A DNA stretch of 64,000 nt from an uncultured Bdellovibrio sp. GTDB lineage: Bacteria; Bdellovibrionota; Bdellovibrionia; Bdellovibrionales; Bdellovibrionaceae. Location of the stretch: contig CAWVRN010000019.1 of assembly GCA_963932905.1 (NCBI GenBank), forward strand, positions 1 through 64,000, given 5' to 3'. How positions within the stretch are numbered: position 1 is the first letter of the stretch; every line of letters begins with the position of its first letter. The position numbers were made by a program, and so were the translations under genes. The notes under the pieces were generated by a model that worked only from the letters and a program-made list of their open reading frames with translations, was not told where the DNA came from and ran no database searches. This document shows, piece after piece, positions 56 through 47,820 of the stretch.

Positions 56-1030
56 TTAGTTAGACTTTTTTGCTAGAAATTCAGAAATGATTTTTCCAGC
101 CCCTGAAGGAACGCGGATGGTGTGGGATGCTACCTGTCTTGGTATGTAATTCACAAGCAATTCAGAATTTAATTCTTTCAGTGATTTTCGGGTGACTCCC
201 AAAGCATCTGCCAGTGATTCTAAATCCGTTCCACCGGGAACAGATACATAGTCATACTCCAAAGGGTCTCGGCGTTCTAAATAGCGAAAGCCGTAAAGGT
301 TTGGCGATTTCGTAATCAACATCGCTGCTAATATTTTTGGTACATAGTTTTGCGTTTCTTCAGGCAGAGCTTTCTTTCTTACTAGTGTCCAATAGTCATT
401 CGTTTTGTGTTTCTCGATCTGGCGGCGTAAACCGTTTTCACCCATGTTGTAGCTTGCCGCCACAAGGTACCATGAACCGAATTCTTGATGTAAATCTTTG
501 ATGTACTTGATTGCAGCTTTTGTACTTTTTCTAAAATCACGGCGTTCATCTAACCACCAGTGCTTGCGTAATCCATAGCGTGCCGCAGTTCCTTCGATAA
601 ATTGCCACGGACCGACGGCATTGGCAGTACTCGTTGCGGACGTAGAAAACCCCGATTCGATCATAACCATGAATGCCAAGTCTAAAGGTAAATGAGCTTT
701 CGCTAATTCATTTTGAATAAATGGAAGATACTTTGAAGAGCGTTCTAAGTACTCACGGAACCATTTGTTACCTTTGGTTTGAAAGTATTGTACCCATTTA
801 GCGACTTGTTGGTTGTACGTTACTGGCAAATCAAAAACTAAATTGTGAGCTTTTGATTCGTCTTGATTTAGACTTAGTTTTTTTAGTCGTTCTTTCAGAG
901 TTTCTTGAGAACCCGGAATCACAACCTCATTTGTAGGAACGGCGGCCCATGTGCTGATCGCGAAAAGCATGACAATCAATATCTTCATCATTTTTATGTT
1001 AATGGAGTTTTGGCTAAAAGCTAGAGTCAT
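56..1030 (-). CDS. Lytic transglycosylase (SLT domain, MltD-like) with a C-terminal LysM-like region
   Basis: MIESGF catalytic Glu motif, AVGPWQF, ASYNMGE, ETQNYVPK; C-terminal LESLADALGVTRKSLKELN is LysM-like; signal peptide. Confidence 0.88.
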   Translation of the reverse strand: MTLAFSQNSINIKMMKILIVMLFAISTWAAVPTNEVVIPGSQETLKERLKKLSLNQDESKAHNLVFDLPVTYNQQVAKWVQYFQTKGNKWFREYLERSSKYLPFIQNELAKAHLPLDLAFMVMIESGFSTSATSTANAVGPWQFIEGTAARYGLRKHWWLDERRDFRKSTKAAIKYIKDLHQEFGSWYLVAASYNMGENGLRRQIEKHKTNDYWTLVRKKALPEETQNYVPKILAAMLITKSPNLYGFRYLERRDPLEYDYVSVPGGTDLESLADALGVTRKSLKELNSELLVNYIPRQVASHTIRVPSGAGKIISEFLAKKSN

Positions 1031-5498: not shown

Positions 5499-5571
5499 GA
5501 AAAAACCAGGAGTTTGGAAAAAGTAAAAAATTTGTTTCAGAATGAGGCAAATTTGATAAAATAAAAATATA

Positions 5572-5768: not shown

Positions 5769-5789
5769 TCTTTCTTCTTTTTAAAAATT

Positions 5790-6458: not shown

Positions 6459-6497
6459 GTAAGTTGATCTTAAATCCCTGCCAATTTAACATGAGTT

Positions 6498-23708: not shown

Positions 23709-23981
23709 ATGACAGAAGAGTTAATTTTAAAATTAGGACAAGATGCCTTACGAACGACAGCGATGTTGGCCGCGCCGCTATTAGTGAGCACGTTAGTGAT
23801 CGGTTTGCTAGTGAGTATCTTTCAAGCTCTAACACAAATCAATGAAGCTACATTGACGTTCGTTCCCAAGATGATTTTGGTGGCGTTAATCTTGGTTTTT
23901 GCTGGGCCTTGGATGTTAGACATTTTATCTGCTTACACGATCGACTTATTTGAAAATATAGCCGTAATGGTGAGAGAATAA
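23709..23981 (+). CDS. fliQ: Flagellar export protein FliQ
   Basis: GLLVSIFQALTQINEATLTFVPK, GPWM. Confidence 0.96.
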   Translation: MTEELILKLGQDALRTTAMLAAPLLVSTLVIGLLVSIFQALTQINEATLTFVPKMILVALILVFAGPWMLDILSAYTIDLFENIAVMVRE

Positions 23982-25818: not shown

Positions 25819-27926
25819 ATGATTTCTTAGAGCCTGTATTTCAGTTTCTAAAAAGATTCGAAAAGTTAACAAAAAATACCGACCTTTTGATTGCCTTCGG
25901 TGTATTGGGAATCTTAACGGTGATGATCATTCCGTTGCCACCGATTATGTTAGATATTTCGTTAACATTTTCGTTAGCGATCAGTATCCTTATTCTTTTA
26001 GTTTCGATCTATTCTAAAAATGTTTTAGATTTTTCATCGTTCCCGAGTTTACTTCTATTGACGACGTTATTCCGTCTATCATTGAACGTAGCGACGACAC
26101 GTTTGATTTTAAGTCATGGTCACGAAGGTCCAAAAGCAGCCGGTGATGTGATCAACGCGTTTGGTAACTTCGTTGTTGGTAACAACTACGTAATCGGTTT
26201 TATCGTATTCATGATCTTGATCGTTATCAATTTCATCGTAATCACTAAAGGTTCGGGTCGCGTGGCCGAAGTCGCAGCTCGTTTCACGTTAGATGCAATG
26301 CCAGGTAAGCAAATGTCGATCGACGCCGATCTTAACGCCGGTTTGATCAATGAAACCGAAGCTCGCAAACGTCGTAAAGAAATTGAAAGAGAAGCCGACT
26401 TCTACGGTTCTATGGATGGTGCCAGCAAGTTCGTTCGTGGTGATGCTATTGCGGGTATCGTTATCATGGTTATCAACGTAGTGGGTGGTTTATTAATTGG
26501 TGTGATCCAAAAGAATTTGGATTTTGCAACAGCTGCTAAGTACTACACTATGTTAACTATCGGTGATGGTCTGCTAGCTCAGATCCCGGCACTTATCATC
26601 TCTACAGCGGCCGGTATGATCGTGACTCGTTCAGCGGGTAACGACGATAACATGGGGCAAGAAGTAGCTTCGCAATTATTTATCAGCACGCGCGCTGTCT
26701 ATATTTCAGCAGCTGTGTTGTTACTTTTAGGTATTGTACCGGGACTTCCGACCATTCCATTCTTTGCGATTGGTTTATTCCTAGCCACAATGGCTTGGGT
26801 CATCGACAAATACAAAGCAGAAACAGCGCTCGAAGAAAAAAAGAAAAGCGAAGCAGCGATTGCCGCTCCAAAAAAAGAAAACGTGGAGTCTTTGCTACCT
26901 TTAGATTTAGTAGAGCTAGAAGTTGGTTATGGTTTAATCCAGGTTGTGGAATCTAATAAGAGTGGCGATTTACTTGAACGTATCGTTTCTATCAGAAAAC
27001 AATTTGCTCTGGATTTAGGTATCATTGTTCCTAGCGTTCATATTCGCGATAATTTGCAGTTGGGACCAGGTGATTACCAATTGATGATTAAAGGTAATCG
27101 TGTGGGTGGCGGTACATTGAAATCGGATTATCTGTTGGCAATGGATCCAGGAAATGTGTCTGATCCAATTGAAGGTATTCCTACAAAAGAACCGGCGTTT
27201 GGACTGGATGCATTGTGGATTCATCCATCACGCAAAGAACAAGCGGAAATGTCTGGATACACAGTGGTGGATTTACCTACGGTTATGGCCACTCACTTAA
27301 CAGAAATCTTGCGTACCCATGCCCATGAATTACTTGGTCGCCAAGAGGCTAGCCAGTTGATCGAAAATTTCAAGAAGATCAATCCAAAAGTGGTGGAAGA
27401 GCTTATTCCAGATATGTTGCCACTGGGTTCAGTTGTTCGTGTTATGCAAAACTTGCTTAAAGAACAGGTTTCTATACGTGACATGTTAACAATATTTGAA
27501 ACGTTAGCTGATGAGGCGCCTAAACAAAAAGATGTAGAGGTATTAACTGAAGGTGTTCGCAAAGGTCTATCACGCGCGATCACTCGCAAATATACCAATG
27601 ATTCTGGCCGTATTCCAGTGATGACGTTGCACCCAAATATTGAAGAAAATATTGCGAATTCATTACTGCAAACCGAACAAGGTGTTCAGTTAGTGATGGA
27701 TCCACAAACGGCTCATCACCTAATTAATCAAATCGCAATTACCGTGGAACAAAACCCAGAGATCGCAGGGCAGCCAATCTTGCTTGCGTCGCCAATGGCG
27801 CGACGTCATCTGTTCAAGCTGACTCATCGGTTTATTCCTCAACTTATCGTTCTGTCACACAACGAGCTTAGTTCAGATGCTCATATTCAATCCGTAGCCA
27901 CTGTGGAGATAACTCATGCAAGTTAG
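25815..27926 (+). CDS. flhA: Flagellar export protein FlhA
   Basis: RVAEVAARFTLDAMPGKQMSIDADL, FYGSMDGASKFVRGDA, TIGDGL. Confidence 0.97.
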   Translation: MNDFLEPVFQFLKRFEKLTKNTDLLIAFGVLGILTVMIIPLPPIMLDISLTFSLAISILILLVSIYSKNVLDFSSFPSLLLLTTLFRLSLNVATTRLILSHGHEGPKAAGDVINAFGNFVVGNNYVIGFIVFMILIVINFIVITKGSGRVAEVAARFTLDAMPGKQMSIDADLNAGLINETEARKRRKEIEREADFYGSMDGASKFVRGDAIAGIVIMVINVVGGLLIGVIQKNLDFATAAKYYTMLTIGDGLLAQIPALIISTAAGMIVTRSAGNDDNMGQEVASQLFISTRAVYISAAVLLLLGIVPGLPTIPFFAIGLFLATMAWVIDKYKAETALEEKKKSEAAIAAPKKENVESLLPLDLVELEVGYGLIQVVESNKSGDLLERIVSIRKQFALDLGIIVPSVHIRDNLQLGPGDYQLMIKGNRVGGGTLKSDYLLAMDPGNVSDPIEGIPTKEPAFGLDALWIHPSRKEQAEMSGYTVVDLPTVMATHLTEILRTHAHELLGRQEASQLIENFKKINPKVVEELIPDMLPLGSVVRVMQNLLKEQVSIRDMLTIFETLADEAPKQKDVEVLTEGVRKGLSRAITRKYTNDSGRIPVMTLHPNIEENIANSLLQTEQGVQLVMDPQTAHHLINQIAITVEQNPEIAGQPILLASPMARRHLFKLTHRFIPQLIVLSHNELSSDAHIQSVATVEITHAS

Positions 27927-29361
27927 AAAATTTGAAGCACGCACGATGAAAGACGCTTTGGAGATGGTCAAGAAGCAACTTGGACCAGACGCGATCATTT
28001 TAGCGGCCAAAGATAACAGCAACAAATACGGGTTGGTTGGCGAAAGCAGTTTTGAAATTACGGCCGCCGTTAGCGAAGAAACGCTTCATAAAAAGAAGTT
28101 TGTTGAATCACGTATGGCTGAAAACGATAAGCAACAATTTCAAAATAGTTCAGCACGCACACAAAAAGAAATTATTTCTAAATTTGTAACTCGTCATACA
28201 ACGCCAGTAACTAAACCAGTTACGACACAAAAATACATCGACATCAATGACGAGAAAAATGCGGCCGAAGAGCGCATTAAAAATGCAGTTCAGCGTGCCT
28301 TCGACGCGGGTACTTTGTTGAATGATCGCGCGAACACGACGCCAAAGCAGCAGCAATCGGCTAAACAAGCTCAAGTCAGAATGCAGGCAGAAGTTAAGCA
28401 CCAAGTAGAAACCCAAATGCAGGCTCAGTCCGATAGTGAATTAAATTCGCTGCGCTCTGAAATCGCATCACTTAAAGCCATGATCAAAAGTATTCATGCT
28501 GCGCCAACGGAATCGCGCCCACAATCGCATTATCCGGGTGAAAACTACGGAATTCATTTCGAACTTTCGTCACAGTTTCAAGGTCTGGTTAAAGAAGGAA
28601 TTTTAGAAGAGCTTGCGGCTGAGATGATCTTAGAACTGCAAAATCAAGTTCCAGTGACGCGTTTAAAAAATAAACCTCTTGTAGAAGGCTTTCTTGCGAA
28701 AAGAATTTTGGAAGATATCGTTATCTCTAGCGGCGAACAAAAGAAGTTTCACTTTTTTGTGGGCCCTAGTGGAGGCGGTAAAACGTCATCGATCATCAAA
28801 ATGGCTTCTCAGTTAATTGTTCGTGAAAATAAGAAAGTAGCTCTTTTAACTTTGGACACTCAGAAGGTGGGTGCGGTTGAACAATTAAGAATTTATTCGC
28901 AAATCTTAAATGTGCCTTTTGCGGTTATCCGTGGTCGCCAAGATTGGAAAGAGATTTTGAAATTCATTAATTCCATCGATTACATTTTGATCGACACACC
29001 GGGAAGCAATTTAAAAACGCAAGAAGAAGTGTCTTTTTTTGAAAGCATGATCTTGAAAGAGATCCCTTCGAAAAGCGTTCATTTAGTATTGTCTGCCCGA
29101 AATAAGTACGATGACCTTCAGGGCGTCCTAAATAATTTTGCGACTCTAAATGTAACGGACGTTATTTTCAATCATCTGGATGAAACAGTTCAGAATGGTA
29201 ACGTATATAGTTTCAATAAGATAAATAAAATCCCGCTTTTTGCATTTGGTATCGGACAAAGAATCCCCGAAGATTTCGAATACGCTACAAAAGAACGATT
29301 AGTCGATTTGATTTTCCATATCACTCAAAAGAATAACACTAATAATGAGGCTTCAATATGA
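27916..29361 (+). CDS. flhF: Flagellar SRP-like GTPase FlhF
   Basis: VKKQLGPDAIIL N-terminus, GPSGGGKTS, GAVEQL, DTPG, GQRIPED. Confidence 0.93.
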   Translation: MQVRKFEARTMKDALEMVKKQLGPDAIILAAKDNSNKYGLVGESSFEITAAVSEETLHKKKFVESRMAENDKQQFQNSSARTQKEIISKFVTRHTTPVTKPVTTQKYIDINDEKNAAEERIKNAVQRAFDAGTLLNDRANTTPKQQQSAKQAQVRMQAEVKHQVETQMQAQSDSELNSLRSEIASLKAMIKSIHAAPTESRPQSHYPGENYGIHFELSSQFQGLVKEGILEELAAEMILELQNQVPVTRLKNKPLVEGFLAKRILEDIVISSGEQKKFHFFVGPSGGGKTSSIIKMASQLIVRENKKVALLTLDTQKVGAVEQLRIYSQILNVPFAVIRGRQDWKEILKFINSIDYILIDTPGSNLKTQEEVSFFESMILKEIPSKSVHLVLSARNKYDDLQGVLNNFATLNVTDVIFNHLDETVQNGNVYSFNKINKIPLFAFGIGQRIPEDFEYATKERLVDLIFHITQKNNTNNEASI

Positions 29362-30176
29362 GTTTCCACTATCCTACTAAAACCATCAGCGTAACTTCCG
29401 GCAAAGGCGGCGTCGGCAAGACAACTTTAGCGTGCAATTTGGCCTATAAGCTATCTCGCTTTGATAAGAAAGTTCTTATTTTTGATGCGGATTTAGGCAT
29501 GTCTAATGTAGATATCTTTTTCGGTACACGGGCAGAAACAACTATATATGATGTTCTTTCCGGAAAGAAAACTATTGAAGAAGCATTGGTCCGCTTAGAT
29601 AGCAATTTGTATTTAATTTCTGGTGGGCATGGTATCGATCAAATGCAGAACTTGGATGCCTACGCTAGAAGAACGGTAGTTGATTCTTTAAAAGAATTGC
29701 CGATTTCATTTGATTACATGGTGATAGATACATCGCCGGGTATTTCACAGAACGTTCTACATATGAATGCGGCAGCGAAAAACAACATCGTAATGATTAC
29801 GGCAGATCCTTCTAGTTTCGCTGATTCCTATGCGTTAATTAAAGTTTTAAATCAAAAATACAAAGTGAATCGTTTCTCGATTGTTTCAAACTGCGTGAAG
29901 AACCAGGAAGATGGTTTCTACTTGTTTAAGCGATTTCAGGACGTCGTACAAAAGTTTCTATTCGTAAGTCTAGACTATCTAGGTGCCGTTCCGCAGGACT
30001 CGCAATTGAAGTCTGCGAATATTAACAAGCGTATCATTCTGAAACAGGACCCTACGTCAGATGCAGCTATTGCGATTTCTCAAATTTCTTCTGAAATTTT
30101 AAAATCACAATATAAAATAAACTCCAGCGGGGGGCTTGAAATGTTCTGGGATAATCTGGCACGAGCAACGTCCTAA
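29358..30176 (+). CDS. flhG: MinD-like ATPase FlhG/FleN
   Basis: SGKGGVGKT, DADLG, DSYALIK; between flhF and fliA. Confidence 0.9.
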   Translation: MSFHYPTKTISVTSGKGGVGKTTLACNLAYKLSRFDKKVLIFDADLGMSNVDIFFGTRAETTIYDVLSGKKTIEEALVRLDSNLYLISGGHGIDQMQNLDAYARRTVVDSLKELPISFDYMVIDTSPGISQNVLHMNAAAKNNIVMITADPSSFADSYALIKVLNQKYKVNRFSIVSNCVKNQEDGFYLFKRFQDVVQKFLFVSLDYLGAVPQDSQLKSANINKRIILKQDPTSDAAIAISQISSEILKSQYKINSSGGLEMFWDNLARATS

Positions 30177-30256
30177 TTGTGAAAGTTGGACTTTTCCGAA
30201 CGCTGACATTTGTTACACTGATTAAGACACACGACAATCCATGGAAAGGGTACTGA

Positions 30257-31039
30257 GTGAAGAATTTAGCTTTGCTGAAGAAGTATAAAGAAGATCCTAA
30301 GCGTTTAACTCAGCAACAAAAAGACAGTTTAATTAAGGAGTACGCTCCGTTAATTAAATTCATCGCACAAAAAATTGCGTCTCGATTACCATCAAATATT
30401 GAACTTGATGATTTAATTTCTTCGGGTGTTATTGGTTTGATGGATGCGATTGATAAATACGATCCATCTCGCGATAATAAATTTAAAACCTATGCTGAAT
30501 TTCGCGTGCGTGGTGCGATTCTTGATGAATTGCGATCGCAAGACTGGGTGCCGCGTTCGATCCGTGACAAATCTAAAGTTTTAGATCGCACAATCGCCCA
30601 ATTAGAACAAGATTTAGGCCGGTCACCTACGGATGAAGAAATCGCAAAAACTTTGAACATCACTCAGGATGAATTTCATGATTTGGTAAATCAAGTTCGC
30701 CCAGTGAGTTTATTGTCAATTGACGATTCTCAGACTTTTAGTAATACGGATAAGAAATCCATTTTGAATCTACTTGAAGGTTCAAAATTAGCGAATCCAT
30801 ATAATCAATTAAACTTAAAAAAGGTAAAAGACATCGTTGCCAAAGCGATAGAAGATCTACCTGAACGTCAGCGTTTAGTTTTGTCACTATATTATTATGA
30901 AGATCTAAATTTGAAAGAGATTGGCCAAGTTTTAAAAGTTACTGAGAGTCGTGTTTCCCAATTGCATGCTCAAGCTGTAACTCGTCTGCGAGCTAAGTTG
31001 GCCGCTACGATTGGATCTGGCGAAATTGAACTTGTATAG
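30257..31039 (+). CDS. fliA: RNA polymerase sigma28 factor
   Basis: RVRGAILDELRSQDWVPRS, LYYYEDLNLKEIG, ESRVSQLH. Confidence 0.96.
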   Translation: MKNLALLKKYKEDPKRLTQQQKDSLIKEYAPLIKFIAQKIASRLPSNIELDDLISSGVIGLMDAIDKYDPSRDNKFKTYAEFRVRGAILDELRSQDWVPRSIRDKSKVLDRTIAQLEQDLGRSPTDEEIAKTLNITQDEFHDLVNQVRPVSLLSIDDSQTFSNTDKKSILNLLEGSKLANPYNQLNLKKVKDIVAKAIEDLPERQRLVLSLYYYEDLNLKEIGQVLKVTESRVSQLHAQAVTRLRAKLAATIGSGEIELV

Positions 31040-34769: not shown

Positions 34770-36212
34770 ATGAAAAAGCTGTTTTCGTATATCTTAGCGA
34801 TTACTTTATTTGTATCTACGCGTTCATTCGCGTCTGATCCCGGTGAAGTTAATTACGTTTCTTATCATTCGGCTCTTGAAAATTTAAACGACGGCCAAGA
34901 TTTAGTTCTACCCCTGTTTTCGCAGCGTGAATCCTATCAAAGTCGTATTGATTTAGCAATGAATCCTCAAAATAAACAATTAGATGTTATGACATTTACA
35001 TTGAATGAAGATTCAGTGGGCTTGACTCTTCTTGCTGCCGCTATTGATGTTGCAAAACGTGGCGGAACACCACGTATCGGGTTCGACGCCTTCTCATCAA
35101 AAATGAGTCCGGAACTTCAAGCCTACGTTCGCGAAAAAGGTGTTGATTTAAGGTCATTCCGTCCGCTCGGTTTTACTAAACGAAATATTTTGGCTTTTTT
35201 TGAGTTAGGTATTTTAGGTTTTGCTAAATTTTTAAATATGCGAACTCATGACAAGGTTTACATCACTGAACACGGAACTGTCGTCGGGTCATCTAACTAC
35301 TCAAAATATTATTACATGTTAGGCAAACTAGAAAATCCAAATAAAAAAGAACGTCATGACATGTGGTCGTTTTTGGATCGCGAAGTTATGATTCAAGGGC
35401 CTGCTGAAAAAGTGGCTCGTCAAAAATTTGAAGAAAAGTGGGCCGACACAAAATCTTGGTCAACGGGTACTCCAGTAAAGTTGACTGATGAAATCAGAGC
35501 TAAATATGATGCGCTGATTGCAAAGCAGATGCAGTTCGTCTCCAGTGTTCACAATACAAAGAAAATGAACAGTTTCGTTTCTGTTAAATATTTAAGGTAT
35601 ATTACTGATGCTGTTGGGGAACAAACTAAAAAGAAAATCATTCATCACCATATATTGAACATGATTAAAAATGCAAAGCATGACATTGTTATCGAAAATC
35701 CGTATGTACTATTACCTTACGATATGATGAGAGAATTAAAAGCGGCAAAAGCTCGCGGTGTTCGCGTTAGAATCTTCACAAATAAAGCTGAAGGTTCCGA
35801 TGAAGGCGACGTTTCAAAGCAGTTTAAAATTGATATGCGTCAGCTTGAAAATACTGGCTTTGAAGTGTACTTAAATGATCACTTTTATATTTTCCACGGC
35901 AAAGTTGTCGTTGTCGATAATCAAGATATTTATTGGGGGTCTTACAATTTCGATCCGCGCTCTAGAAACTTTAATTCAGAGAATGGCATTTTCTTTACAA
36001 GTTTAGAGGTGGCTGGCCAAATTATACGTCGTACAGCAACAGGTATCTTTGTCCCAATTGATATCGAAGGACAGGGATCTAAGTCGTATGCTGTGAAATA
36101 TTTAGCTAGGACTTGTGCCGAGGTCTATAAAAAACAACGCGTGGAAACGATTCACTTGGAAACAAGTATGTGGAGTCGCTTGTTGATGCGTATGAAGAAA
36201 CCACTACTTTAG
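34770..36212 (+). CDS. Secreted phospholipase D superfamily protein (two HKD motifs)
   Basis: Signal peptide (SFA|S); RTHDKVYITE...VVGSSN; FHGKVVVVD...WGSYNFDPRS. Confidence 0.88.
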   Translation: MKKLFSYILAITLFVSTRSFASDPGEVNYVSYHSALENLNDGQDLVLPLFSQRESYQSRIDLAMNPQNKQLDVMTFTLNEDSVGLTLLAAAIDVAKRGGTPRIGFDAFSSKMSPELQAYVREKGVDLRSFRPLGFTKRNILAFFELGILGFAKFLNMRTHDKVYITEHGTVVGSSNYSKYYYMLGKLENPNKKERHDMWSFLDREVMIQGPAEKVARQKFEEKWADTKSWSTGTPVKLTDEIRAKYDALIAKQMQFVSSVHNTKKMNSFVSVKYLRYITDAVGEQTKKKIIHHHILNMIKNAKHDIVIENPYVLLPYDMMRELKAAKARGVRVRIFTNKAEGSDEGDVSKQFKIDMRQLENTGFEVYLNDHFYIFHGKVVVVDNQDIYWGSYNFDPRSRNFNSENGIFFTSLEVAGQIIRRTATGIFVPIDIEGQGSKSYAVKYLARTCAEVYKKQRVETIHLETSMWSRLLMRMKKPLL

Positions 36213-36272: not shown

Positions 36273-39200
36273 ATGAAAAAACATTTTTCTTTACTATTAG
36301 TGCCTATCTATTTGGTTTCTTGTGTTTCTAACCCAGTGGCTCAGTCTCCACGAGAAACACCGACAGTTAACCTGATTACAAACAATGATAACATTGAGTT
36401 TGAATTTTTAAGACTCAGTGACTGTGCGGAAAAGAACGCGAACCGATCTCCTTCGGCACAAACCAAATGTCTAAATTTTTATGAAGTGAACGCCGTAGCG
36501 CCCACCAAGAAAGAAGTGGACGTAATTTCTGAAATTGCCGGGAAAACCCGGGTGATTGAACAATTTGGCCAGACAGAAAATTTGGGATTGTGGGCGATGT
36601 ATTTTGGATCGGGCCGGGTTCGCGATATGATCAAAGGTGATTCGGCAACGTCAATTCACCCTGTGGAATTCATTTCTGAAAAGCAAATTAAATCTATTTC
36701 GGCGGCGTGGAGAACGCTGCGTGATATTCCCGATAACAAATTCACTTTAAGCCAAGAATTGGTTTTAGATGTAAACCGACTTTTAATGGGTGACGTCGAA
36801 ACCTCGGTTATCCAGGATTTAAATTCTAGAATCACGGATGAAACGCAGAAGGCAACCGGTTTGAAACGGATGGCTGCCAATATTTCTAACTATTTCAAAT
36901 CGGCGCCTGGTTTTAGAACCAAAGGCAAACGTGAAGAGTTCGAACAGGTTAAAGATGCAGATTTTGCAATTTATAAAGCTAATGCTGAAGCTGTTGGTGG
37001 TCGTGTTATAGAAGCGGCTGATTCCGTTGCCGACGCCCGAGTATTTACTGTGGAAGCACCTAAAGGCCAAGCGGCTCAAATCGCATTGGGTCGTGTTCTT
37101 GAAGAGACCAACAGAAAAATTGAAAATGCCGATTCGGCTTCTTATGCAGAAAAAGTGGCGATTGCGGCGGACCTTCATTTAAAACTGGCGGCGTTAAAAC
37201 CGATGAATAAATTAAACGATTTAACCGTTCAGATGGTTGTCAACCGCGCATTGATTCAAATGGGATTGGATCCGGCTGTTCAAGTGCCAGTAGATCTTTC
37301 AATGAGTCGGGAAAAAGTGGCTGAATTATATCGAGACGGAATCGTCGACTATCTTAGCTACACACAAAGAACATTCGATATTAAGTTGAACAAAGAAGGC
37401 GTAGTTGAAATCGCGAATGAAGCCGTAGCAATTACAGGTCGTGGTGCCGGTCTTCGTGTCAAAGTTTACGGTCGATACGCACATAAATATCCTAAAGCCG
37501 TAGCATTGATGCGTGATAAAGATAGAGTCACCCCACTTGACGGACGTATGCTTCAGTTGGGAAAAAATCGACGTACATTCGTTCTAAAGGATGACGGTTT
37601 TCTCTATGACGGTATTATTCCTCACACAGTCCGTGAAGAAAATGGGCAGTTGAAACTTTATCCGATTTCAGACATGGCCTACCGACTGCTTGGTTTAAAT
37701 GGTCAATTGACTGGTGAAGACAGTGTTCGTCGGGAAATCACAATTGAACATCAGGCACAGTTAAAGCAAAACTTGGCAGCCATTGAACGACTATTGCAAA
37801 ATAAAGTAAAACCAGAGGATTTCGAAATCGTCTATGATAAGAATACTTTGCAGGCGAACAAAACGGGTGGTTTGTATTTATACGAATGGCAAATTACAAG
37901 TTTAGAGCGAGCGGCAAAAATCAAAGAAGACCCAAAAGAAAATCCCTATGCGGTTTTGATCCCGTCACGCGGTGACCCGTTCAATTCTAGAATGGCCGGT
38001 CGTAGTTCGTTTGAACAAAATTATTTCAAAGGTTCTCGTGGTACAAAAATTGGTGATTTAATTGGGCAGTATGAACAAAGAGACTTAGATTACAATCAGC
38101 TGGCTCGTGAAGTTAAAAGAAATACATCGATTCCTGAGGCTCGTAAGGCAAAGATTTTAAAAGACATCATGGATTCTCGACGTAAATTGCATTTAGCCGC
38201 TCGTGAAATCTTGCGACCCTTGATGACTAAGTATCTTGAACTTTCATCCGTGGAAAAAGATAACTTACGCGATAACGCGACCTTTTATCAATTAGAAGAT
38301 TATTTACGTAATTTCTCTAAATTGTGGTTTGAATCGTTAGACCAGGCCATCGCAAAATTCGGTGATGATCACGTCTATGTACAACGTGTACAAACGGCGG
38401 GTTTAACCAATTTCCTTGGGTTCAGATCTCAGACAGAATTAGGTAATCACCCTCTGGCTGTAGTATTAACTTTAAATGGAATGTTGGTCCCCCAACTTCG
38501 TGAAATTTATGCAGCAATGAAATCACCACAAGAAGTAGATAGTGTAACTGAAGACGGAACCGTGAGCAAAATCGTAGCACAAAAAATTGCAGCGATCGCG
38601 AAAGGTAACAAAAAAATCGAAGCCATTCTGGCAAGTATCGTTCTTCGCATCTATTCTACGCGTGCCGCAGATATCCAAAGCATGCAAGAGTTTGAATCTG
38701 TATTCATGACTCATTATTTACATGCTGTGAATCGTGGAATGAAAGAAGGCATTTCGACAACCGCGGATCCAACCTATTTAGCGATGGTAAAAACATACGA
38801 ACAATACTCTAGTTTGAAAATCGATGACAGCTTGGTCGCATTCTTTAAAGAATTTAAAAAAGATTCAAAAGAACCAGCTGTCGAAGCTAAACAGTGGATT
38901 GAGGTCTTGGCTAAAAAGGAAAAGGAAAAAAAGTTACCACTTGATTACTATGAACTAGGTTGGATTGGCGCCTTTTCAAAAGAGTTCAACATACCGATGG
39001 GACAGCTAGTGGAGTTTGCAAAGAAAAACAAATCGAACAATGACAAATTCACAAGTCAAAGTGATGCGATTATATATGTACTGAGAATTCCAGTTGAAGA
39101 AATTGATTCCAACTATGCTTCTGGATATGCGGCTCAATTTGAAAACACAACTCGTCGTGGTTATGGTGTCATTCGATCTAAATGGGGTGTATTCCCTAGA

Positions 39201-39797
39201 AAACCTGTTATTCAACGTGAATACAAAGGCGCGCAAAAATTCGGAGTTAACTTAGCCGATCTTAGTGAAAAGGGTAGGGCTGTTTACGATATGACTCAGA
39301 ATCATATCGAAAGCAAACCAGATTTTACTCCTTACTTGGTATACACAGCGGGAGCTAACAAGCATCAAGGTATCTTGGCGGGCTTAACGAGCTCAAATAA
39401 GAAACTATACGCTCAGTCTGTAAAAGCACTTACAGGCTTGAAATACGATCTGCAAACATTGAAATCGGAACAAGATGTGGCCGGCTTTAAACAGCTTATC
39501 GAAGACGTATTCAATGGTGCTATTAAAGCGATTGAAACTAGAACAGGCGAAGTCAACGCCGACATACGTAAAGAATTAATAAACTCATTGGCCGCGTTCC
39601 TAAAAGAGCATGGTCAGCGTGACGAACGTGTTGCTGGCTGGGTAGCTGAACTTTGGGAAGGCGTTATTCCCGTGAAAGGCGCGGATCAACAACCTGTACC
39701 TGTAGTTGGCAAAGATGTGGTACGTAAAGCCAAAATAGAAGCGGCTGCCATGAAGAAAATTATTGGTGCTCCAGTTGCAGAAGAGCCGGCATCCTAA
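36273..39797 (+). CDS. Large lipoprotein with a degenerate Fic-like region and a putative R-S-E ADP-ribosyltransferase region
   Basis: Lipobox LVSC; AADLHLKLAALKPMNKLNDLTVQMVVNRALIQMGLDP; VYVQR / GISTT / IIYVLRIP / AQFE. Confidence 0.6.
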   Translation: MKKHFSLLLVPIYLVSCVSNPVAQSPRETPTVNLITNNDNIEFEFLRLSDCAEKNANRSPSAQTKCLNFYEVNAVAPTKKEVDVISEIAGKTRVIEQFGQTENLGLWAMYFGSGRVRDMIKGDSATSIHPVEFISEKQIKSISAAWRTLRDIPDNKFTLSQELVLDVNRLLMGDVETSVIQDLNSRITDETQKATGLKRMAANISNYFKSAPGFRTKGKREEFEQVKDADFAIYKANAEAVGGRVIEAADSVADARVFTVEAPKGQAAQIALGRVLEETNRKIENADSASYAEKVAIAADLHLKLAALKPMNKLNDLTVQMVVNRALIQMGLDPAVQVPVDLSMSREKVAELYRDGIVDYLSYTQRTFDIKLNKEGVVEIANEAVAITGRGAGLRVKVYGRYAHKYPKAVALMRDKDRVTPLDGRMLQLGKNRRTFVLKDDGFLYDGIIPHTVREENGQLKLYPISDMAYRLLGLNGQLTGEDSVRREITIEHQAQLKQNLAAIERLLQNKVKPEDFEIVYDKNTLQANKTGGLYLYEWQITSLERAAKIKEDPKENPYAVLIPSRGDPFNSRMAGRSSFEQNYFKGSRGTKIGDLIGQYEQRDLDYNQLAREVKRNTSIPEARKAKILKDIMDSRRKLHLAAREILRPLMTKYLELSSVEKDNLRDNATFYQLEDYLRNFSKLWFESLDQAIAKFGDDHVYVQRVQTAGLTNFLGFRSQTELGNHPLAVVLTLNGMLVPQLREIYAAMKSPQEVDSVTEDGTVSKIVAQKIAAIAKGNKKIEAILASIVLRIYSTRAADIQSMQEFESVFMTHYLHAVNRGMKEGISTTADPTYLAMVKTYEQYSSLKIDDSLVAFFKEFKKDSKEPAVEAKQWIEVLAKKEKEKKLPLDYYELGWIGAFSKEFNIPMGQLVEFAKKNKSNNDKFTSQSDAIIYVLRIPVEEIDSNYASGYAAQFENTTRRGYGVIRSKWGVFPRKPVIQREYKGAQKFGVNLADLSEKGRAVYDMTQNHIESKPDFTPYLVYTAGANKHQGILAGLTSSNKKLYAQSVKALTGLKYDLQTLKSEQDVAGFKQLIEDVFNGAIKAIETRTGEVNADIRKELINSLAAFLKEHGQRDERVAGWVAELWEGVIPVKGADQQPVPVVGKDVVRKAKIEAAAMKKIIGAPVAEEPAS

Positions 39798-40949: not shown

Positions 40950-41288
40950 TACCCACGTCGGGGGCGCCTAGCCGCAGCCGTTTCCTTCTTCATTCGTCGA
41001 TGTTCATCAAAAACCCGGGGGATACCCCGATGCCGGTTTGCCGGTTGCCTAGATGCGGCCCTGTTAAGGAAGTGTAAAACCTAGAGTTTGTAAATTTCGG
41101 TTGGAGGATAATTTTTTCAATTCGAAGCTGCCAACTAATCTATTGCTTATGGTGCGATTCATTTGCCTGTTCCACTTCGCAACCACGGATGATTAATTTC
41201 ATTTCAAAATAACAGGGATTTACTTTTAAAGTGAGCGGCTTTAGTCAAGCTGAGTCTTTAAAACATAAATTAAACAATGGAGTTTAAA

Positions 41289-41660
41289 ATGAAATCAGTA
41301 GTAGCTTTGTTTCTTTTCGCAGCGTCGTTGGCATCAGCAACATCAATGAAGCCTTATGACAAATGGGCTTGTAACTTTGAATATCCTCGCAATCAGATGA
41401 TTCGTGGAGTAAAAGTAAATGTTGATTTTGATTTGATTAAAAATCAAGGTTCAGCAATCGCAATCGCTCAATGTATTAATTGTCGTATTATGCCTCTTCA
41501 AGTCAGTGTTACTCGTCGCGTAGCAAATAACACTGTGTTTTTCACAAATGCTAAAAACAGTTTTGATTTAAGAATTTTCTGGTCACCAATCGCACGTCCG
41601 CATACGCCTTTAGCCGCTTTTTACAACGGTATTGCTGGAACTTGTACGGCCGTTAACTAA
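41289..41660 (+). CDS. Small secreted hypothetical protein with four Cys
   Basis: MKSVVALFLFAASLASA signal peptide; GGAG RBS before ATG 41289; CINC. Confidence 0.7.
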   Translation: MKSVVALFLFAASLASATSMKPYDKWACNFEYPRNQMIRGVKVNVDFDLIKNQGSAIAIAQCINCRIMPLQVSVTRRVANNTVFFTNAKNSFDLRIFWSPIARPHTPLAAFYNGIAGTCTAVN

Positions 41661-43860: not shown

Positions 43861-44766
43861 ATGGGAAGTGATAACATATTGCTTTTTTTGGCTGTCTTTC
43901 TGGGCGGAATCTCTGTGTATTTTTTTGTTGCTGCATTCATTCAAAGCAACAAAGACAAGCAGCAATTAAGCTGGGCGAATAATGACGAGCCTATTAAATC
44001 AAAAAACCCAATTATCAATATGTCTCGGCCACTTGTGCATCAATTCACGTTGCAACATGCATTGAAAGTTAAAAGCGCAAGCTATCGCAAAAAAGTTTCT
44101 AAATACATCATGGTTGGCGGTTTGTCAGCAGAGCTGAACGAAGACGAATTCATCGGGTTGCAAATCTTGTGGGGAGTAATGTTCCCAGCGTTTATCTCGT
44201 TGATGGATTTTGCATTGCAATTGGAATTTCCATTTATTTTTATCTTGGCGTTAATTCCATTTGGATTCTATTTGCCGATCATGCACGCCATGGGCGAGAA
44301 AGCAAAACGCGAAGCCAGCGTTCGTGCCGATCTTCCTTTCTTCATCGACTTGTTAGCATTGTCGGTGGAAGCTGGCCTTGAGTTTTTCTCGGCGGTACAA
44401 AAACTTATCGATAAATCAAAAGGTACGGATAGCGTATTAGCCGCCGAGCTTGCAATCGTGATTCACGAAACCCAAATGGGTTCATCACGGGAAGAAGCCT
44501 TAAGAAAAATGGTCGCACGACTCGACATGAGTGAAATCACGTCGTTTGTTGCCGTGATTCTTGATGCACAAGCATCGGGTGCGCCAATTTCCAGAGTCTT
44601 GAAAGAACAATCCGAACAAATCAGGTTAGAACGATTTGTGCGGGCAGAAAAAGCCGGTGAAAAAGCAACACAAACTATCATGATTCCAATCATGGTGTGT
44701 ATTGTACCAGCTGTTTTCATTATGGTCTTGGGACCAGTGGCGTTAGGTATGATGTACGGTGGGTAA
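43861..44766 (+). CDS. tadC: TadC-like type II secretion system F-domain membrane protein
   Basis: DLPFFIDLLALSVEAGL, GSSREEAL, G-x-PI...EQIRLERFVRAEKAG, C-terminal TM. Confidence 0.85.
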   Translation: MGSDNILLFLAVFLGGISVYFFVAAFIQSNKDKQQLSWANNDEPIKSKNPIINMSRPLVHQFTLQHALKVKSASYRKKVSKYIMVGGLSAELNEDEFIGLQILWGVMFPAFISLMDFALQLEFPFIFILALIPFGFYLPIMHAMGEKAKREASVRADLPFFIDLLALSVEAGLEFFSAVQKLIDKSKGTDSVLAAELAIVIHETQMGSSREEALRKMVARLDMSEITSFVAVILDAQASGAPISRVLKEQSEQIRLERFVRAEKAGEKATQTIMIPIMVCIVPAVFIMVLGPVALGMMYGG

Positions 44767-45114
44767 ATGAAGAAACTATGGAATAAAACTCAGAACGAAT
44801 TACTTGTTGGCCAACTCGAGGTGGCAACTGCTTTTGTTGATCGTGGTGTTGGATTGTTAAAACGTACAAGTTTGAATGACCAAGAAGGTTTATGGATTAA
44901 TCCATGTAACAGCATTCACACATTTTTTATGAAGTTTCCTATTGATTGTATTTTTATAACCAAGGATTTGGTCGTGGATGATTTAGTTGAAAATGTAGCG
45001 CCGTGGAAAGTGGTTTTCCCAAGATGGAAATCACGTTCCGTGATCGAGCTACCATCTGGATTTATTCGTAAATCAAAAGTAAAGAAAGGAGATCAGCTCG
45101 ATGTGGTCTCTTAG
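44767..45114 (+). CDS. DUF192 family protein
   Basis: RGVGLL, SIHTFFMKFPID, VIELPSG, GD. Confidence 0.88.
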   Translation: MKKLWNKTQNELLVGQLEVATAFVDRGVGLLKRTSLNDQEGLWINPCNSIHTFFMKFPIDCIFITKDLVVDDLVENVAPWKVVFPRWKSRSVIELPSGFIRKSKVKKGDQLDVVS

Positions 45115-46732
45115 AGTATTAAATGGTCCTCAAGGGGGCCAAATATTTAATCTTAAAAATGGGAAGAACACAGTGGGGCGCGCCTCTCAGTGTGATATCA
45201 AGATCATGGTTCAGGGTGTGTCTAAGATTCACTGCGAATTGCACGTGACTCAAGAAGGAATCAAAGTTGTTGATAATAATTCCAGCAATGGAACTTATGT
45301 AAATGGAACTAAAATTCAATCTACGGTTTTACGTTTGGGCGATAAATTCAGTATCCATAATGTTTTCCTAGATGTTGTGCCGACACCGCAATTAAAAGCA
45401 AATACTCAGTTAATTCGACAAGGACAGCAACAACAAGTTCCTCAAGGTTTTATCCCACAACCGCATGGTGCTTTGGCTCATCAGCAGCAACCAATGCAAA
45501 TGAATTCTATTTATCAGCAACAAATGCAGCAGGCCCATTTGTCTGTTGCCAAAGAGCCAAGACAAGACAAACCAGCTCAAAAAGATTTTAAAGAAAAGTT
45601 TGAAGAGTATTTAAATAAGGTTGTTTTGCCCGGCGTTTATAAACTGGCTCAGATTTTTGAAATGAAAATGGTTCTTGCTGGTTTCGTCGGTTTATTCATT
45701 TTTGCAGTAACACTTTTTTCTTTGTTCCCGATGATTACGGTCAGTCGCGACAGCATTCAAAGTGAAGCGAGAAAACGTGCCGGATCACTTGCTCGTGCCC
45801 TAGCGGAAACCAATCGTCGCGGTATTTCAGAAAATAACTATGCCTCATTAAGTACGTTTTCAATCGAACGCGAGGATGGAGTTAAAGAAGCTCTTATTAT
45901 AAGCAGAACAGATGGATCGGTGATCGCTCCAGCGGCCAAGTCAGGTAGAACTATGGACATTCCTTTCTTGAATGAAGTTCAACGTTCTAGCCGTGATATT
46001 GTTAGATCGATTGATGGAACTACGATTGGTGCTTCATTCCCAATTGAACGCTATGATATCGACAAACAAGAATCCGTACCGGTGGCGTTTGCTGTTGTCA
46101 TTTATGATATCAGCATTTTAGCTATGGATGACGGGATCATCGTTAGCTTGTTTATGCAGAACTTAATCATCGCCAGTATTTTTGGTGGTATTCTGTTCTT
46201 TTTCTTGTACAAATTAATCGAATTTCCAATTTCAAGTCTAAACAGACAGCTGGATATAGCACTTCGCGAGAAAACTGATGCTATCGAAAATACATTCTTG
46301 TTCCCTCCATTACAGGCTTTGGCCGGTAACGTATCTAGTTTACTAACACGCTATATTAGCGGTGAAGGTCAATCGCAAGGTTCACAAAGCAAAGACTTTG
46401 AAGCCACTATGTTGATTCAGCATTTCCGTGACCCTGCATTTGCAGTGACACCAGAGAAAAAGATTTTGAATCTAAATAGTAATTTTGAATCACTTGCGCA
46501 AAACTCTGTGGAAAACCTTATGTCCCAAGGTATTGATGCTATTGTTGATCAGTCGTTGAAACTAAATATTTACGAATTGATTCAAGAATCAGTTCAGGTC
46601 CCAAATCAAATTCACCAACGTGAATTGGATATGGGCCGCGGTACAATTGTTATACGTTGTCATCCAGTTATGAATGGCGCAAACCCAGATTATTTTTTGT
46701 TCTCGATTGTACCTAAGAAGGAAGATACTTGA
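45101..46732 (+). CDS. FHA-domain membrane protein (FHA, Q-rich linker, two TMs with periplasmic loop, HAMP/PAS-like tail)
   Basis: VGR...SKIH...SSNGTYVNG; two hydrophobic helices. Confidence 0.8.
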   Translation: MWSLRVLNGPQGGQIFNLKNGKNTVGRASQCDIKIMVQGVSKIHCELHVTQEGIKVVDNNSSNGTYVNGTKIQSTVLRLGDKFSIHNVFLDVVPTPQLKANTQLIRQGQQQQVPQGFIPQPHGALAHQQQPMQMNSIYQQQMQQAHLSVAKEPRQDKPAQKDFKEKFEEYLNKVVLPGVYKLAQIFEMKMVLAGFVGLFIFAVTLFSLFPMITVSRDSIQSEARKRAGSLARALAETNRRGISENNYASLSTFSIEREDGVKEALIISRTDGSVIAPAAKSGRTMDIPFLNEVQRSSRDIVRSIDGTTIGASFPIERYDIDKQESVPVAFAVVIYDISILAMDDGIIVSLFMQNLIIASIFGGILFFFLYKLIEFPISSLNRQLDIALREKTDAIENTFLFPPLQALAGNVSSLLTRYISGEGQSQGSQSKDFEATMLIQHFRDPAFAVTPEKKILNLNSNFESLAQNSVENLMSQGIDAIVDQSLKLNIYELIQESVQVPNQIHQRELDMGRGTIVIRCHPVMNGANPDYFLFSIVPKKEDT

Positions 46733-47820
46733 TGAGTGCTGCGGCTAAAGTAAAACTTTTACCTTTCGAATTAGAGGTTGTTTCAGGTCCACACCTGGGG
46801 CAGAAGTTTTCTTTTGTCGATACGGAATCGCTTACTATTGGTCGTGGTCCAGAAAATCAAATCAGTCTTCCCCACGATCCACGCGTAAGTCGCATCCATG
46901 CAGAGATCCGCCAAGAAAACGATGCTATCTACGCCATTAATAGAACAGATAAAAATTCGATGCTGATAAATGGTTTGAAAGAAGATAAATTCAAAATTAC
47001 TCAATCATGTGTGATTTCAATTGGCGAAACGGAATTCAAATTTATTTATCCACAAACGGCTCCGAAACAATTCAAAAATCCGTTACAGCCTTTGTCGACA
47101 ACAGTGCCGGTGGGATTAGTACAGCCGCAGCCGCAAGCTCAAGTTCCTGGACCTTTGATGAGGCAACCGCCTCCAAGTACATTTAGAAATCAAGGACCTG
47201 TGACTCCGAATTCAATGAATTCGGGCGCCCCACCGCAGGCACCAAGACGTCGTAAGGTTCCTAAAAAACAAGAGAGCTTTAATCCGATGTATTTAATTGC
47301 GATCGTGGGAATCGTCGTAGTCGCTATACTTGTATTGCCAAGTAAACCAAGCGAAAACGTAACTCCGGAAAAACCGGTAGAGATTGTTACCCCGGTATTT
47401 CAGGACGATCGTCGTTATCAAGAGTCTGTAGAACGTGCTAAGCAAGCTCTATTGAAAATGGAGAATTTGAACTCCCGTCAAGCGATGGCTCAGCAGTTTT
47501 TTATTAGTGGTATGCGTGAATTTTTAAATGGTAATTACCAAAGATCTATTAGCTTTTTGAACTCGGCTTATCAGAGCGATCCGACACTGGTCGACGCGGA
47601 TAAGTTCGCTCGAGAGGCTCAACGAAAGCTAGACCGTCTGATTGATTTCTACTTTGCAGAAGGGTTAAAATATAGAGAAAATAGTAATTATAGAATGTGT
47701 AAATCGTCGTTTCAAACTGTCCAGCTTTATATTCGAAACAACATGAAGCATCCAAAATACTTGGAGGCTAAGCAGTTTTTTGAAGAATGTACTAACTTAG
47801 ACCGAGTGAGGAGATTCTAA
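46729..47820 (+). CDS. FHA-domain membrane protein with a C-terminal TPR-like region
   Basis: IGR...VSRIHA; Pro/Gln linker; one TM; helical repeat tail. Confidence 0.8.
   Translation: MMSAAAKVKLLPFELEVVSGPHLGQKFSFVDTESLTIGRGPENQISLPHDPRVSRIHAEIRQENDAIYAINRTDKNSMLINGLKEDKFKITQSCVISIGETEFKFIYPQTAPKQFKNPLQPLSTTVPVGLVQPQPQAQVPGPLMRQPPPSTFRNQGPVTPNSMNSGAPPQAPRRRKVPKKQESFNPMYLIAIVGIVVVAILVLPSKPSENVTPEKPVEIVTPVFQDDRRYQESVERAKQALLKMENLNSRQAMAQQFFISGMREFLNGNYQRSISFLNSAYQSDPTLVDADKFAREAQRKLDRLIDFYFAEGLKYRENSNYRMCKSSFQTVQLYIRNNMKHPKYLEAKQFFEECTNLDRVRRF

What the first reader, a model, noticed from the sequence alone, without database searches (positions are those of the whole stretch)
38370..39150. Cryptic R-S-E ADP-ribosyltransferase motifs in the 1174-aa lipoprotein
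Seen in order: HVYVQR (Arg codon 38385), GISTTAD (STT 38754-38762), IIYVLRIP, YAAQFE (QxE 39135-39143). Established: pertussis/cholera/pierisin-type ARTs use an Arg strand, an S-T-[ST] strand, a Y-x-I strand and a [QE]-x-E catalytic loop in that order. Inference: an ART core split by two ~100-aa helical insertions, which could hide it from profile searches; a candidate prey-directed toxin.
Basis: inference. Interest (0 to 1): 0.75.

Follow-up and report, generated by a model that had tools for sequence, protein, structure and literature searches.

The report
Hidden ADP-ribosyltransferase domain in predator lipoprotein
A 1174-residue lipoprotein of a Bdellovibrio-like bacterium carries a dead Fic domain followed by a domain predicted to be an ADP-ribosyltransferase that standard family searches miss, so it is likely an NAD-using modifying enzyme and possibly a weapon against prey.

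Summary

Fic is recognised in 47 of 53 distant members. In the window's clade the Fic catalytic motif is destroyed, while R-S-E is never lost.

Enzyme activity, target and any role against prey are untested.

The parts
36273..39797 (+). Whole gene: 1174-aa exported multidomain lipoprotein (P0001)
   Evidence: ORF list and translation. Orthologs at 52-89% identity. dN/dS about 0.04 against the L008 ortholog in every region, with dS saturated.
36273..36323 (+). Signal peptide with lipobox-like LVSC; Cys17 is the predicted lipidation site
   Evidence: Read from the sequence. The N-terminal Cys-containing motif is kept in the clade. No signal-peptide predictor was run.
36324..36509 (+). Low-confidence, likely flexible tether (residues 18-79) with two nearly invariant Cys (C51, C66)
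   Evidence: pLDDT below 50 over 17-53, 55-67 and 70-79. C51 and C66 are at least 90% conserved in A1.
36537..37391 (+). Fic-fold domain (residues about 89-373), AnkX-like, catalytically degenerate
37197..37232 (+). Position of the Fic catalytic motif; it reads KPMNKLNDLTVQ where relatives read HPFxDGNGRxSR
   Evidence: Alignment columns 309-320. No Pfam Fic hit for P0001.
37392..38342 (+). Conserved middle module (residues 374-690): a small beta-sheet (427-464) plus helices; fold not identified
   Evidence: High pLDDT and secondary structure. It is the best-conserved long stretch in the clade. It holds near-invariant P464, Q540, L562, Y600, R636 and A642.
38343..39362 (+). Predicted R-S-E ADP-ribosyltransferase domain (residues about 691-1030)
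38370..38396 (+). Strand 1 (residues 700-708) carrying R705 (codon 38385-38387)
   Evidence: Strand E700-708. R is present in all 69 rows that reach the column.
38397..38726 (+). Helical insertion 1 (residues 709-818), present family-wide with variable length
   Evidence: Helices H709-818. R->S spacing is 89-178 aa across the family.
38754..38762 (+). Strand 2: S828-T829-T830 (S-x-[ST])
   Evidence: Strand E828-830. S-x-[ST] in 67 of 67 rows. The clade's conservation peak is 811-840.
38796..39026 (+). Helical insertion 2 (residues 842-918), specific to the window's clade
   Evidence: Helices. S->E spacing is 126-139 aa in the clade against 47-74 aa in all other rows.
39066..39092 (+). Strand 3 (residues 932-940, IIYVLRIP)
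   Evidence: Strand E932-940. Y935, V936 and L937 are invariant in the clade.
39120..39143 (+). ARTT-like loop SGYAAQFE (residues 950-957): aromatic Y952, Q955 and the predicted catalytic E957 at the start of strand 5
   Evidence: Pattern X-X-aromatic-X-X-[QE]-X-E from PMC7827354. Aromatic in 65 of 67 rows, Q/E in 66 of 67, E in 67 of 67. Strand E957-960.
39360..39782 (+). C-terminal helical repeat (residues about 1030-1170), clade-specific extension
34770..36212 (+). Upstream neighbour: signal-peptide-bearing PLD-like protein (P0002), 60 nt upstream on the same strand; possibly co-transcribed
   Evidence: Pfam PLDc_2 2.5e-27. The gene pair is conserved in L008, L009 and L010.

Best explanation
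Residues about 691-1030 of this lipoprotein are predicted to fold as an R-S-E class ADP-ribosyltransferase, so the protein likely binds NAD+ and transfers ADP-ribose to a target (or hydrolyses NAD+), possibly in prey.

Shown directly:
- The gene encodes a 1174-aa protein with a lipobox-like signal.
- It has a Fic-fold domain whose catalytic motif is destroyed.
- It has a conserved middle module.
- It has a C-terminal domain in which R705, S828-x-T830 and Q955-x-E957 are the most conserved residues of a family of exported Fic-plus-this-domain proteins.

Predicted: R, S and E lie on strands 1, 2 and 5 of an ART-like core that is split by two helical insertions.

Inferred:
- R705 and S828 hold NAD+.
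- E957 activates the ribose-nicotinamide bond.
- Y952 and Q955 of the ARTT-like loop pick the target. Because position 6 of the loop is Q and not E, the target residue is likely not arginine.
- The protein is exported by Sec/Lol and held on a membrane by its lipid anchor and a flexible tether.
- It acts outside the predator's cytoplasm, most plausibly on prey components during invasion, perhaps together with the neighbouring secreted PLD-like enzyme.
- The dead Fic domain would serve as a scaffold or binding module.
For: Conservation:
- R705, S828 and E957 are 3 of the 11 columns at 90% or more in 70 rows.
- R, G716, S and E are the only invariant columns in 67 rows and in the 53 distant rows.
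- R is present in 69 of 69 rows that reach its column. S-x-[ST] and E are present in 67 of 67.
- The ARTT-loop pattern is met: aromatic in 65 of 67, Q/E in 66 of 67 (pattern quoted from passages of PMC7827354).
- Within the clade, conservation peaks at 811-840 and 931-960.

Structure:
- The whole-protein model (pLDDT 87.4, pTM 0.83) and the domain model (86.7, 0.81) both place R, S and E on strands 1, 2 and 5, counting strands of 3 or more residues.
- By my reading of the titles, 34 of 50 rows are ART/PARP/ART-toxin entries. The 5 clearly unrelated rows align only to helical insert 199-282.
- A second look at Foldseek's list also ranks CC0527, pertussis toxin and a Listeria ART toxin first.

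Other evidence:
- Language-model features of the compact C-terminal part of relative P0036 are nearest to ART clusters, including PF03496, at scores 0.93-0.94.
- The Fic catalytic His was lost in one clade (17 rows) and in three further rows. R-S-E is never lost.
- Purifying selection acts throughout the gene.
- No ADP-ribosylhydrolase (PF03747) or Macro (PF01661) match was found in the 98.6%-complete genome. That fits a one-way, outward-directed activity better than a reversible regulatory cycle.
- Relatives come from Bdellovibrio, Bdellovibrionaceae and Bdellovibrionota.
Against: - No sequence method recognises an ART. Pfam gives 0 hits for P0001. No ART family appears even at E<=5 in 53 relatives. 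NCBIfam, PADLOC and a PDB profile search give nothing for this part. hhalign against T4 ModA/ModB gives probability 0.1.
- Foldseek finds no ART with either the whole model or the domain model.
- The Atlas query with the window's own region gave no usable hit. The ART-like hits are for a relative's part, with 145-148 shared features, which fits a distant relative or chance.
- I could not measure residue-level equivalence or the R-S-E distances.
- A near-invariant Arg of the distant relatives (consensus EFxRxF, query position 809) is Ser in the window's clade.
- NAD+ is not expected in the periplasm or outside cells.
- A lipid anchor is unusual for a delivered toxin.
- No activity, target, localisation or expression data exist.
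Confidence: 0.7

Rival explanations
1. The ART-fold domain is chiefly an NAD+ glycohydrolase. It would deplete NAD+ (for example prey NAD+ leaking into the bdelloplast periplasm) rather than modify a specific macromolecule.
Against: The ARTT-like loop, with a conserved aromatic residue and Q/E (65 and 66 of 67 rows), is a substrate-recognition feature of transferases. The best matches are transferases: TreX, PltA, Scabin, LT.
Confidence: 0.12
2. The enzyme is active but works on the predator's own envelope or periplasmic components, in housekeeping or regulation, and not on prey.
For: The lipid anchor keeps it on the producer's membrane. The gene sits among housekeeping genes in conserved synteny, with no mobile-element or immunity gene beside it. 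ω (dN/dS) is about 0.04, which indicates ordinary purifying selection.
Against: No ADP-ribosylhydrolase or Macro domain was found to reverse the mark. A full-length member was found in only 2 of 201 sampled genomes of the phylum, which is odd for a core function. The protein diverges faster than its neighbours: 55% identity against 75-93% in L009/L010. The best structural match is an interbacterial toxin.
Confidence: 0.13
3. The domain is an ART-like fold that has lost catalysis. It would serve only as a binding or scaffold module, and the R/S/E residues are kept for structural or ligand-binding reasons.
Against: All three catalytic positions plus the ARTT-loop Q/E and aromatic residue are kept over a family with 17-19% mean column identity. 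That pattern is typical of active sites. These residues are retained even where Fic decays.
Confidence: 0.05

Closest known systems
TreX / Tre1 / TreTu: R-S-E ART toxin tips of T6SS Rhs proteins (PDB 8s2m, 7zhl; PMC11606950, passages read)
   Different: TreX is a small C-terminal tip, about 130 aa, delivered by the T6SS with an immunity protein. It has ExE and modifies arginines of FtsZ. The window domain is about 340 aa with two helical insertions and has QxE. It is part of a Sec-exported lipoprotein with a Fic-like domain, and no immunity gene lies beside it.
Cholera/LT/pertussis-toxin group A subunits, including EcPltA (PDB 1ltb, 7skk, 4z9d)
   Different: There is no detectable sequence-profile relationship and no B-subunit genes. 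The domain context differs, and the helical insertions are much larger.
Scabin / pierisin / ScARP: DNA-targeting R-S-E ARTs with QxE (PDB 5ewk, 5h6n)
   Different: Similarity is at fold level only, and the target is unknown here. Within the family, position 6 is Q in 38 rows and E in 28, so specificity is not uniform.
AnkX and FICD (Fic/Fido enzymes; PDB 6sku, 4bep, 4u04)
   Different: The motif HPFx[DE]GN[GK]R reads KPMNKLNDLTVQ in the window protein. There are no ankyrin repeats. The Fic part is followed by the middle module and the ART-like domain.

Membership tests
R-S-E class ADP-ribosyltransferase superfamily | ART core fold (six strands and a helix forming the NAD cleft) | tested here: met
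R-S-E class ADP-ribosyltransferase superfamily | Arg on the first core strand | tested here: met
   R705 lies in strand E700-708. It is present in 69 of 69 rows that reach the column.
R-S-E class ADP-ribosyltransferase superfamily | S-x-[ST] on the second core strand | tested here: met
   S828-T-T forms strand E828-830. S-x-[ST] in 67 of 67 rows.
R-S-E class ADP-ribosyltransferase superfamily | ARTT loop X-X-aromatic-X-X-[QE]-X-E, with the last Glu on the fifth strand | tested here: met
   SGYAAQFE at 950-957, with E957 opening the fifth strand E957-960. Aromatic in 65 of 67 rows, Q/E in 66 of 67, E in 67 of 67. Pattern taken from PMC7827354.
R-S-E class ADP-ribosyltransferase superfamily | R, S and E side chains line one NAD+-binding cleft | tested here: inconclusive
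   The tools give no model coordinates. This is only implied by alignments to ART cores that span all three strands (model 60..353).
R-S-E class ADP-ribosyltransferase superfamily | NAD+-dependent ADP-ribosyl transfer or NAD+ hydrolysis | not testable with these tools
   Needs a biochemical assay.
Curated ART sequence families (Pfam ADPrib_exo_Tox, ART, Enterotoxin_a, Pertussis_S1 and others) | Match to the family profile at or above its cut-off | tested here: not met
   No Pfam family at E<=1 for P0001. No ART family at E<=5 in any of 53 relatives. So the domain belongs to no existing Pfam ART family, although the fold and motifs fit the superfamily.
Fic/Fido (PF02661) | Fic fold | tested here: met
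Fic/Fido (PF02661) | Catalytic motif HPFx[DE]GN[GK]R with the catalytic His | tested here: not met
   The window protein reads KPMNKLNDLTVQ. All 14 rows of its clade, plus P0016, P0017 and P0019, lack the His. Motif as quoted in the abstracts of PMC2686095 and PMC7479194.
Fic/Fido (PF02661) | Pfam profile match | tested here: not met
   No hit for P0001. Only weak hints: NCBIfam XopAC 8.1e-4 and PDB FICD homolog E 0.47. Relatives: 45 of 47 hit at E<=0.01, 42 of them at or above 24 bits.
Bacterial lipoprotein | Signal peptide ending in a lipobox with Cys | tested here: met
   MKKHFSLLLVPIYLVSC, with LVSC ending at Cys17. The equivalent Cys is kept in the clade. The lipobox consensus is recalled, and no predictor was run.

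The most novel reading that the evidence does not exclude
A previously undescribed family of exported 'two-warhead' proteins, Fic plus a profile-invisible R-S-E ADP-ribosyltransferase, found so far almost only in Bdellovibrionota. The ART is the constant warhead, and the Fic active site has been discarded at least four times. In this reading the window's lipoprotein is a predator-surface enzyme that uses prey NAD+ to ADP-ribosylate a non-arginine prey target (protein Asn/Cys or a nucleic-acid base) during invasion, working with the adjacent secreted PLD.
Probability: 0.3. Interest if true: 0.8.

Novelty: new variant of a known kind. Interest (0 to 1): 0.66.

Why it matters
No ADP-ribosylating enzyme of bacterial predators turned up in my literature searches (read as listings and abstracts only). 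How Bdellovibrio-like predators disable prey is still largely a list of hydrolases.

An exported ART would add covalent modification through NAD+ to that arsenal, and it would give a concrete target-finding experiment.

The case also shows a sizeable ART family that Pfam, NCBIfam, PDB profile searches and Foldseek all miss. It became visible only through conservation, motif logic and an alignment-tolerant fold search.

The family offers a natural experiment in pseudo-enzyme evolution: Fic decays repeatedly while the ART triad never does.

Tried and rejected
- Pfam, NCBIfam and PADLOC on P0001 gave no ART. The only hints were weak Fic-type ones.
- phmmer of P0001 against PDB gave only E 0.3-0.5 noise and a FICD hint.
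- The family profile A2 against PDB gave Fic entries only and no ART at E<=10.
- A Pfam scan of 53 relatives at E<=5 gave Fic in 47 and no ART family.
- hhalign of the domain profile against phage T4 ModA/ModB gave probability 0.1. This is a weak test because the template profile is thin.
- Foldseek against PDB found Fic only with the whole model. With the domain model the best E was 0.53, and the hits were GPCR and helical noise.
- The whole-model VIA search was filled by the Fic domain and the C-terminal helical repeat, so it did not test the ART part.
- The ESM Atlas query with window residues 680-1030 gave no usable hit.
- AMPylation by the Fic domain as the protein's function is rejected for this clade because the catalytic motif is gone.
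- A defence-system reading is rejected for P0001, which has no PADLOC hit. The DrmC-like PADLOC hits of the PLD neighbour only reflect the PLD fold.
- The search for related loci with the 70-row alignment could not make patterns. It was rerun with the 14-row alignment.
- Complex prediction, sequencing-run searches and read laying were not used.
- The fold of the middle module (residues 374-690) was not identified.

Full report
**Observation.** The ORF at 36273..39797 (+) encodes 1174 residues beginning MKKHFSLLLVPIYLVSC. One search places the motifs as follows:
- HVYVQR at residues 700-705 (nt 38370-38387)
- GISTTAD at 826-832 (STT = 38754-38762)
- IIYVLRIP at 933-940
- YAAQFE at 952-957 (QFE = 39135-39143)

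By themselves the motifs would not be significant. ST[ST] occurs once in the protein, but [QE]xE occurs 10 times and Arg 67 times.

**Sequence searches.**
- Pfam finds nothing in the protein at E<=1, and PADLOC finds nothing.
- Two independent weak hints point to a Fic domain at about residues 243-342: NCBIfam XopAC at 8.1e-4 and a PDB FICD homolog at E 0.47.
- The word-indexed search of 5.8 billion clusters finds 13 other proteins. Twelve are full-length, at 52-89% identity. The thirteenth, P0015, is 982 aa and covers 84% of the query.
- The exhaustive HMMER search of 1.84 billion representatives finds 59 proteins at E<=0.001. Most are 800-1100 aa and align to query residues about 290-840.
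- Of 47 such relatives, 45 carry Pfam Fic at E<=0.01, and 42 of those reach the 24-bit cut-off. In the 53-row set, 47 carry it.
- The family profile hits FICD (1.8e-25), AnkX (2.5e-14) and IbpA in the PDB, and nothing else of note.

- In the 70-row alignment (mean column identity 18%) only 11 columns reach 90%: L327, P464, Q540, L562, Y600, R636, A642, R705, G716, S828 and E957.
- With fragments removed, R705, G716, S828 and E957 are the only invariant columns in 67 rows. The same holds in the 53 distant rows alone.
- R is present in 69 of 69 rows that reach its column. S-x-[ST] and the final E are present in 67 of 67.
- The local contexts look like ART motifs: h-h-L-R-S-D, K-x-G-x-S-[FT]-[ST]-T and [QE]-[YF]-E-h-h.
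[quoted passage not shown] They also give the ARTT loop as X-X-aromatic-X-X-E/Q-X-E.
- The eight residues ending at E957 fit this pattern (window: SGYAAQFE). The third position is aromatic in 65 of 67 rows, and the sixth is Q (38), E (28) or A (1).
- Within the window's own clade, conservation peaks at 811-840 (0.84) and 931-960 (0.81).

**Structure prediction.**
- The whole protein, folded with the 70-row alignment, gives mean pLDDT 87.4 and pTM 0.83.
- Residues 640-1035, folded with the 67-row alignment, give 86.7 and 0.81.
- In both models the strands of three or more residues in this region run as follows: 700-708 (R705), 828-830 (S-T-T), 932-940 (IIYVLRIP), 944-946, 957-960 (E957) and 980-984. 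So R, S and E sit on strands 1, 2 and 5.
- Helices fill 709-818 and 842-918.
- The first helical region is family-wide, with R->S spacing of 89-178 aa.
- The S->E spacing is 47-74 aa in all rows outside the window's clade, against 126-139 aa inside it. About 75 residues of the second insertion are therefore clade-specific.

**Fold comparison.**
- Foldseek finds no ART with either model. This is plausibly because the long helical insertions break its local alignments.
- Next come 9ld3_A (6.3), EcPltA (6.0, 109 aligned), Scabin (5.9, 112), LT (5.7, 106), CC0527 (5.5), Arr (5.3), TreTu (5.3) and pertussis toxin (5.0).
- Further down are CARDS toxin, pierisin-1, DarT, Tpt1, Tne2, ExoS, diphtheria toxin, Vis, TccC3, CopC and many PARPs.
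- My tally of the 50 rows, from titles: 34 are ART, PARP or ART-toxin entries. Eight I recall as ART-like folds (9ld3, AvrPphF ORF2, 6b, Tne2, IcmQ and three CNFy entries). Three are unknown to me (CC0527, BC2332, VPA0770). Five unrelated entries align only to the helical insert, model 199-282.
- The tool gives no residue-level equivalences. The alignments start at LT residue 4 = model 63 and PT residue 3 = model 60. That would place those toxins' catalytic Arg (positions recalled) on R705 if the first strand is ungapped. This is inference.

**Independent lead.** Language-model features of the compact C-terminal part of relative P0036 (residues 560-847) are nearest to clusters named ADP-ribosyltransferase and to PF03496/PF01129 clusters, at scores 0.93-0.94. 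The shared-feature counts are 145-148, which the tool says fit a distant relative or chance. The same tool gave no usable hit for the window's own region.

**Context.**
- The window is contig C19 of a 4.55-Mb, 98.6%-complete genome.
- Titles of the three related loci name an uncultured Bdellovibrio sp. and two Bdellovibrionaceae MAGs.
- Of the 10 distant relatives looked up, 3 carry an organism in the name their source gives them: Bdellovibrio sp., Bdellovibrionota bacterium and Bdellovibrionales bacterium.
- Among 201 sampled genomes of the phylum, only G000 and G076 hold full-length members. The other 22 matches cover the Fic region only.
- The genome has one copy of the family plus a small ordinary Fic protein on C30.
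- Gene order is conserved in L008-L010: MFS transporter, 385-aa putative outer-membrane protein, PLD-like gene, this gene, then a 104-aa gene, a DivIVA-like gene, proC and a YggS-like gene.
- In L009/L010 the lipoprotein is 55% identical where its neighbours are 75-93% identical. It is therefore the fastest-evolving gene of the block.
- It is nevertheless under purifying selection: ω (dN/dS) is about 0.04 in every region against L008, with dS saturated at about 1.7.
- The upstream gene, 60 nt away on the same strand, encodes a signal-peptide-bearing PLD-like protein.
- No ADP-ribosylglycohydrolase or Macro domain was found in the genome.
- Consensus scans found no terminator-like site between the PLD-like gene and this gene, and none on the + strand within it.

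**Mechanism.** Shown: the domain order is lipobox signal, low-confidence tether (18-79, with two conserved Cys), pseudo-Fic fold (89-373), conserved middle module (374-690, fold unidentified), R-S-E ART-like domain (691 to about 1030) and a clade-specific helical repeat (about 1030-1170). Predicted: an ART core with the catalytic residues in canonical strand order. Inferred:
- The domain binds NAD+ through R705 and S828, and E957 performs catalysis.
- Y952 and Q955 select the target. Q rather than E at ARTT position 6 argues against arginine as acceptor (rule from PMC7827354).
- The protein acts outside the producer's cytoplasm.
- The target is in prey.

The best structural match, TreX, is an antibacterial toxin that ADP-ribosylates FtsZ arginines (PMC11606950 passages). 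That makes an anti-bacterial role plausible but does not show it.

**Novelty.** ADP-ribosyltransferases and Fic enzymes are well known. Four things are new here:
- an ART family invisible to Pfam, NCBIfam, PDB-profile and Foldseek searches
- its fusion behind a Fic domain in exported proteins of Bdellovibrionota
- the repeated loss of the Fic active site with strict retention of R-S-E
- the clade-specific insertion and C-terminal repeat

Four literature searches, read as listings and abstracts only, returned no paper describing a Bdellovibrio ART or a Fic-ART fusion. Supplements were not examined. I rate it a new variant of a known kind, with interest 0.66.

Noticed in passing
window 34770-36212 (+): A 480-aa PLD-like protein with a signal peptide and two HKD-type motifs (Pfam PLDc_2 2.5e-27; ClsB-like). 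It lies 60 nt upstream of the lipoprotein on the same strand, and the pair is conserved in three related genomes. It may be a secreted phospholipase or nuclease partner.
   Followed up: partly
window 37197-37232 (+); relatives P0034, P0049, P0057: The Fic catalytic His was lost once in the 17-row clade that holds the window protein, and independently (H->R) in three other family members. R-S-E is kept in all of them.
   Followed up: yes
window 38697-38699 (+), residue S809: A near-invariant Arg of the distant relatives (consensus EFxRxF, just before the S-x-[ST] strand) is an invariant Ser in the window's clade. Its meaning for NAD binding or for Fic-ART coupling is unknown.
   Followed up: no
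window 37392-38342 (+), residues 374-690: The conserved middle module is the best-conserved long stretch in the clade and holds six of the eleven near-invariant family columns. It has a small beta-sheet at 427-464. No fold or family was identified.
   Followed up: no
L009 and L010 (Bdellovibrionaceae MAGs), match 4001-7492: The lipoprotein is 55% identical where flanking genes are 75-93% identical, so it evolves much faster than its syntenic neighbours.
   Followed up: partly
G076:C111:25937-28495 and G076:C39:17277-19343: One genome of another family of the phylum carries two full-length members of the Fic-ART family plus a fragment. 199 of the 201 sampled genomes carry none.
   Followed up: partly
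G099, G121, G126, G136, G164, G192 (genus g4), e.g. G126:C1:1868036-1868491: A different Fic protein of about 774-816 aa recurs in a sister genus. It matches the family profile only over the Fic region. Its C-terminal part was not examined.
   Followed up: no
window 23981-31039 (+): A flagellar export and regulation cluster (FliR-, FlhB-, FlhA-, FlhF-, FleN/MinD- and FliA-like ORFs, judged by eye from the translations) lies upstream of the region.
   Followed up: no
window 45101-49919 (+): Three consecutive large ORFs (543, 363 and 699 aa) each begin with what looks by eye like an FHA-type domain followed by Q/P-rich linkers. They lie next to a TadC-like membrane protein (43861-44766).
   Followed up: no
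window 41277-41660 (+): A small (127 aa) signal-peptide-bearing, Cys-containing ORF of unknown function. It is conserved at 57-63% identity in L009/L010.
   Followed up: no
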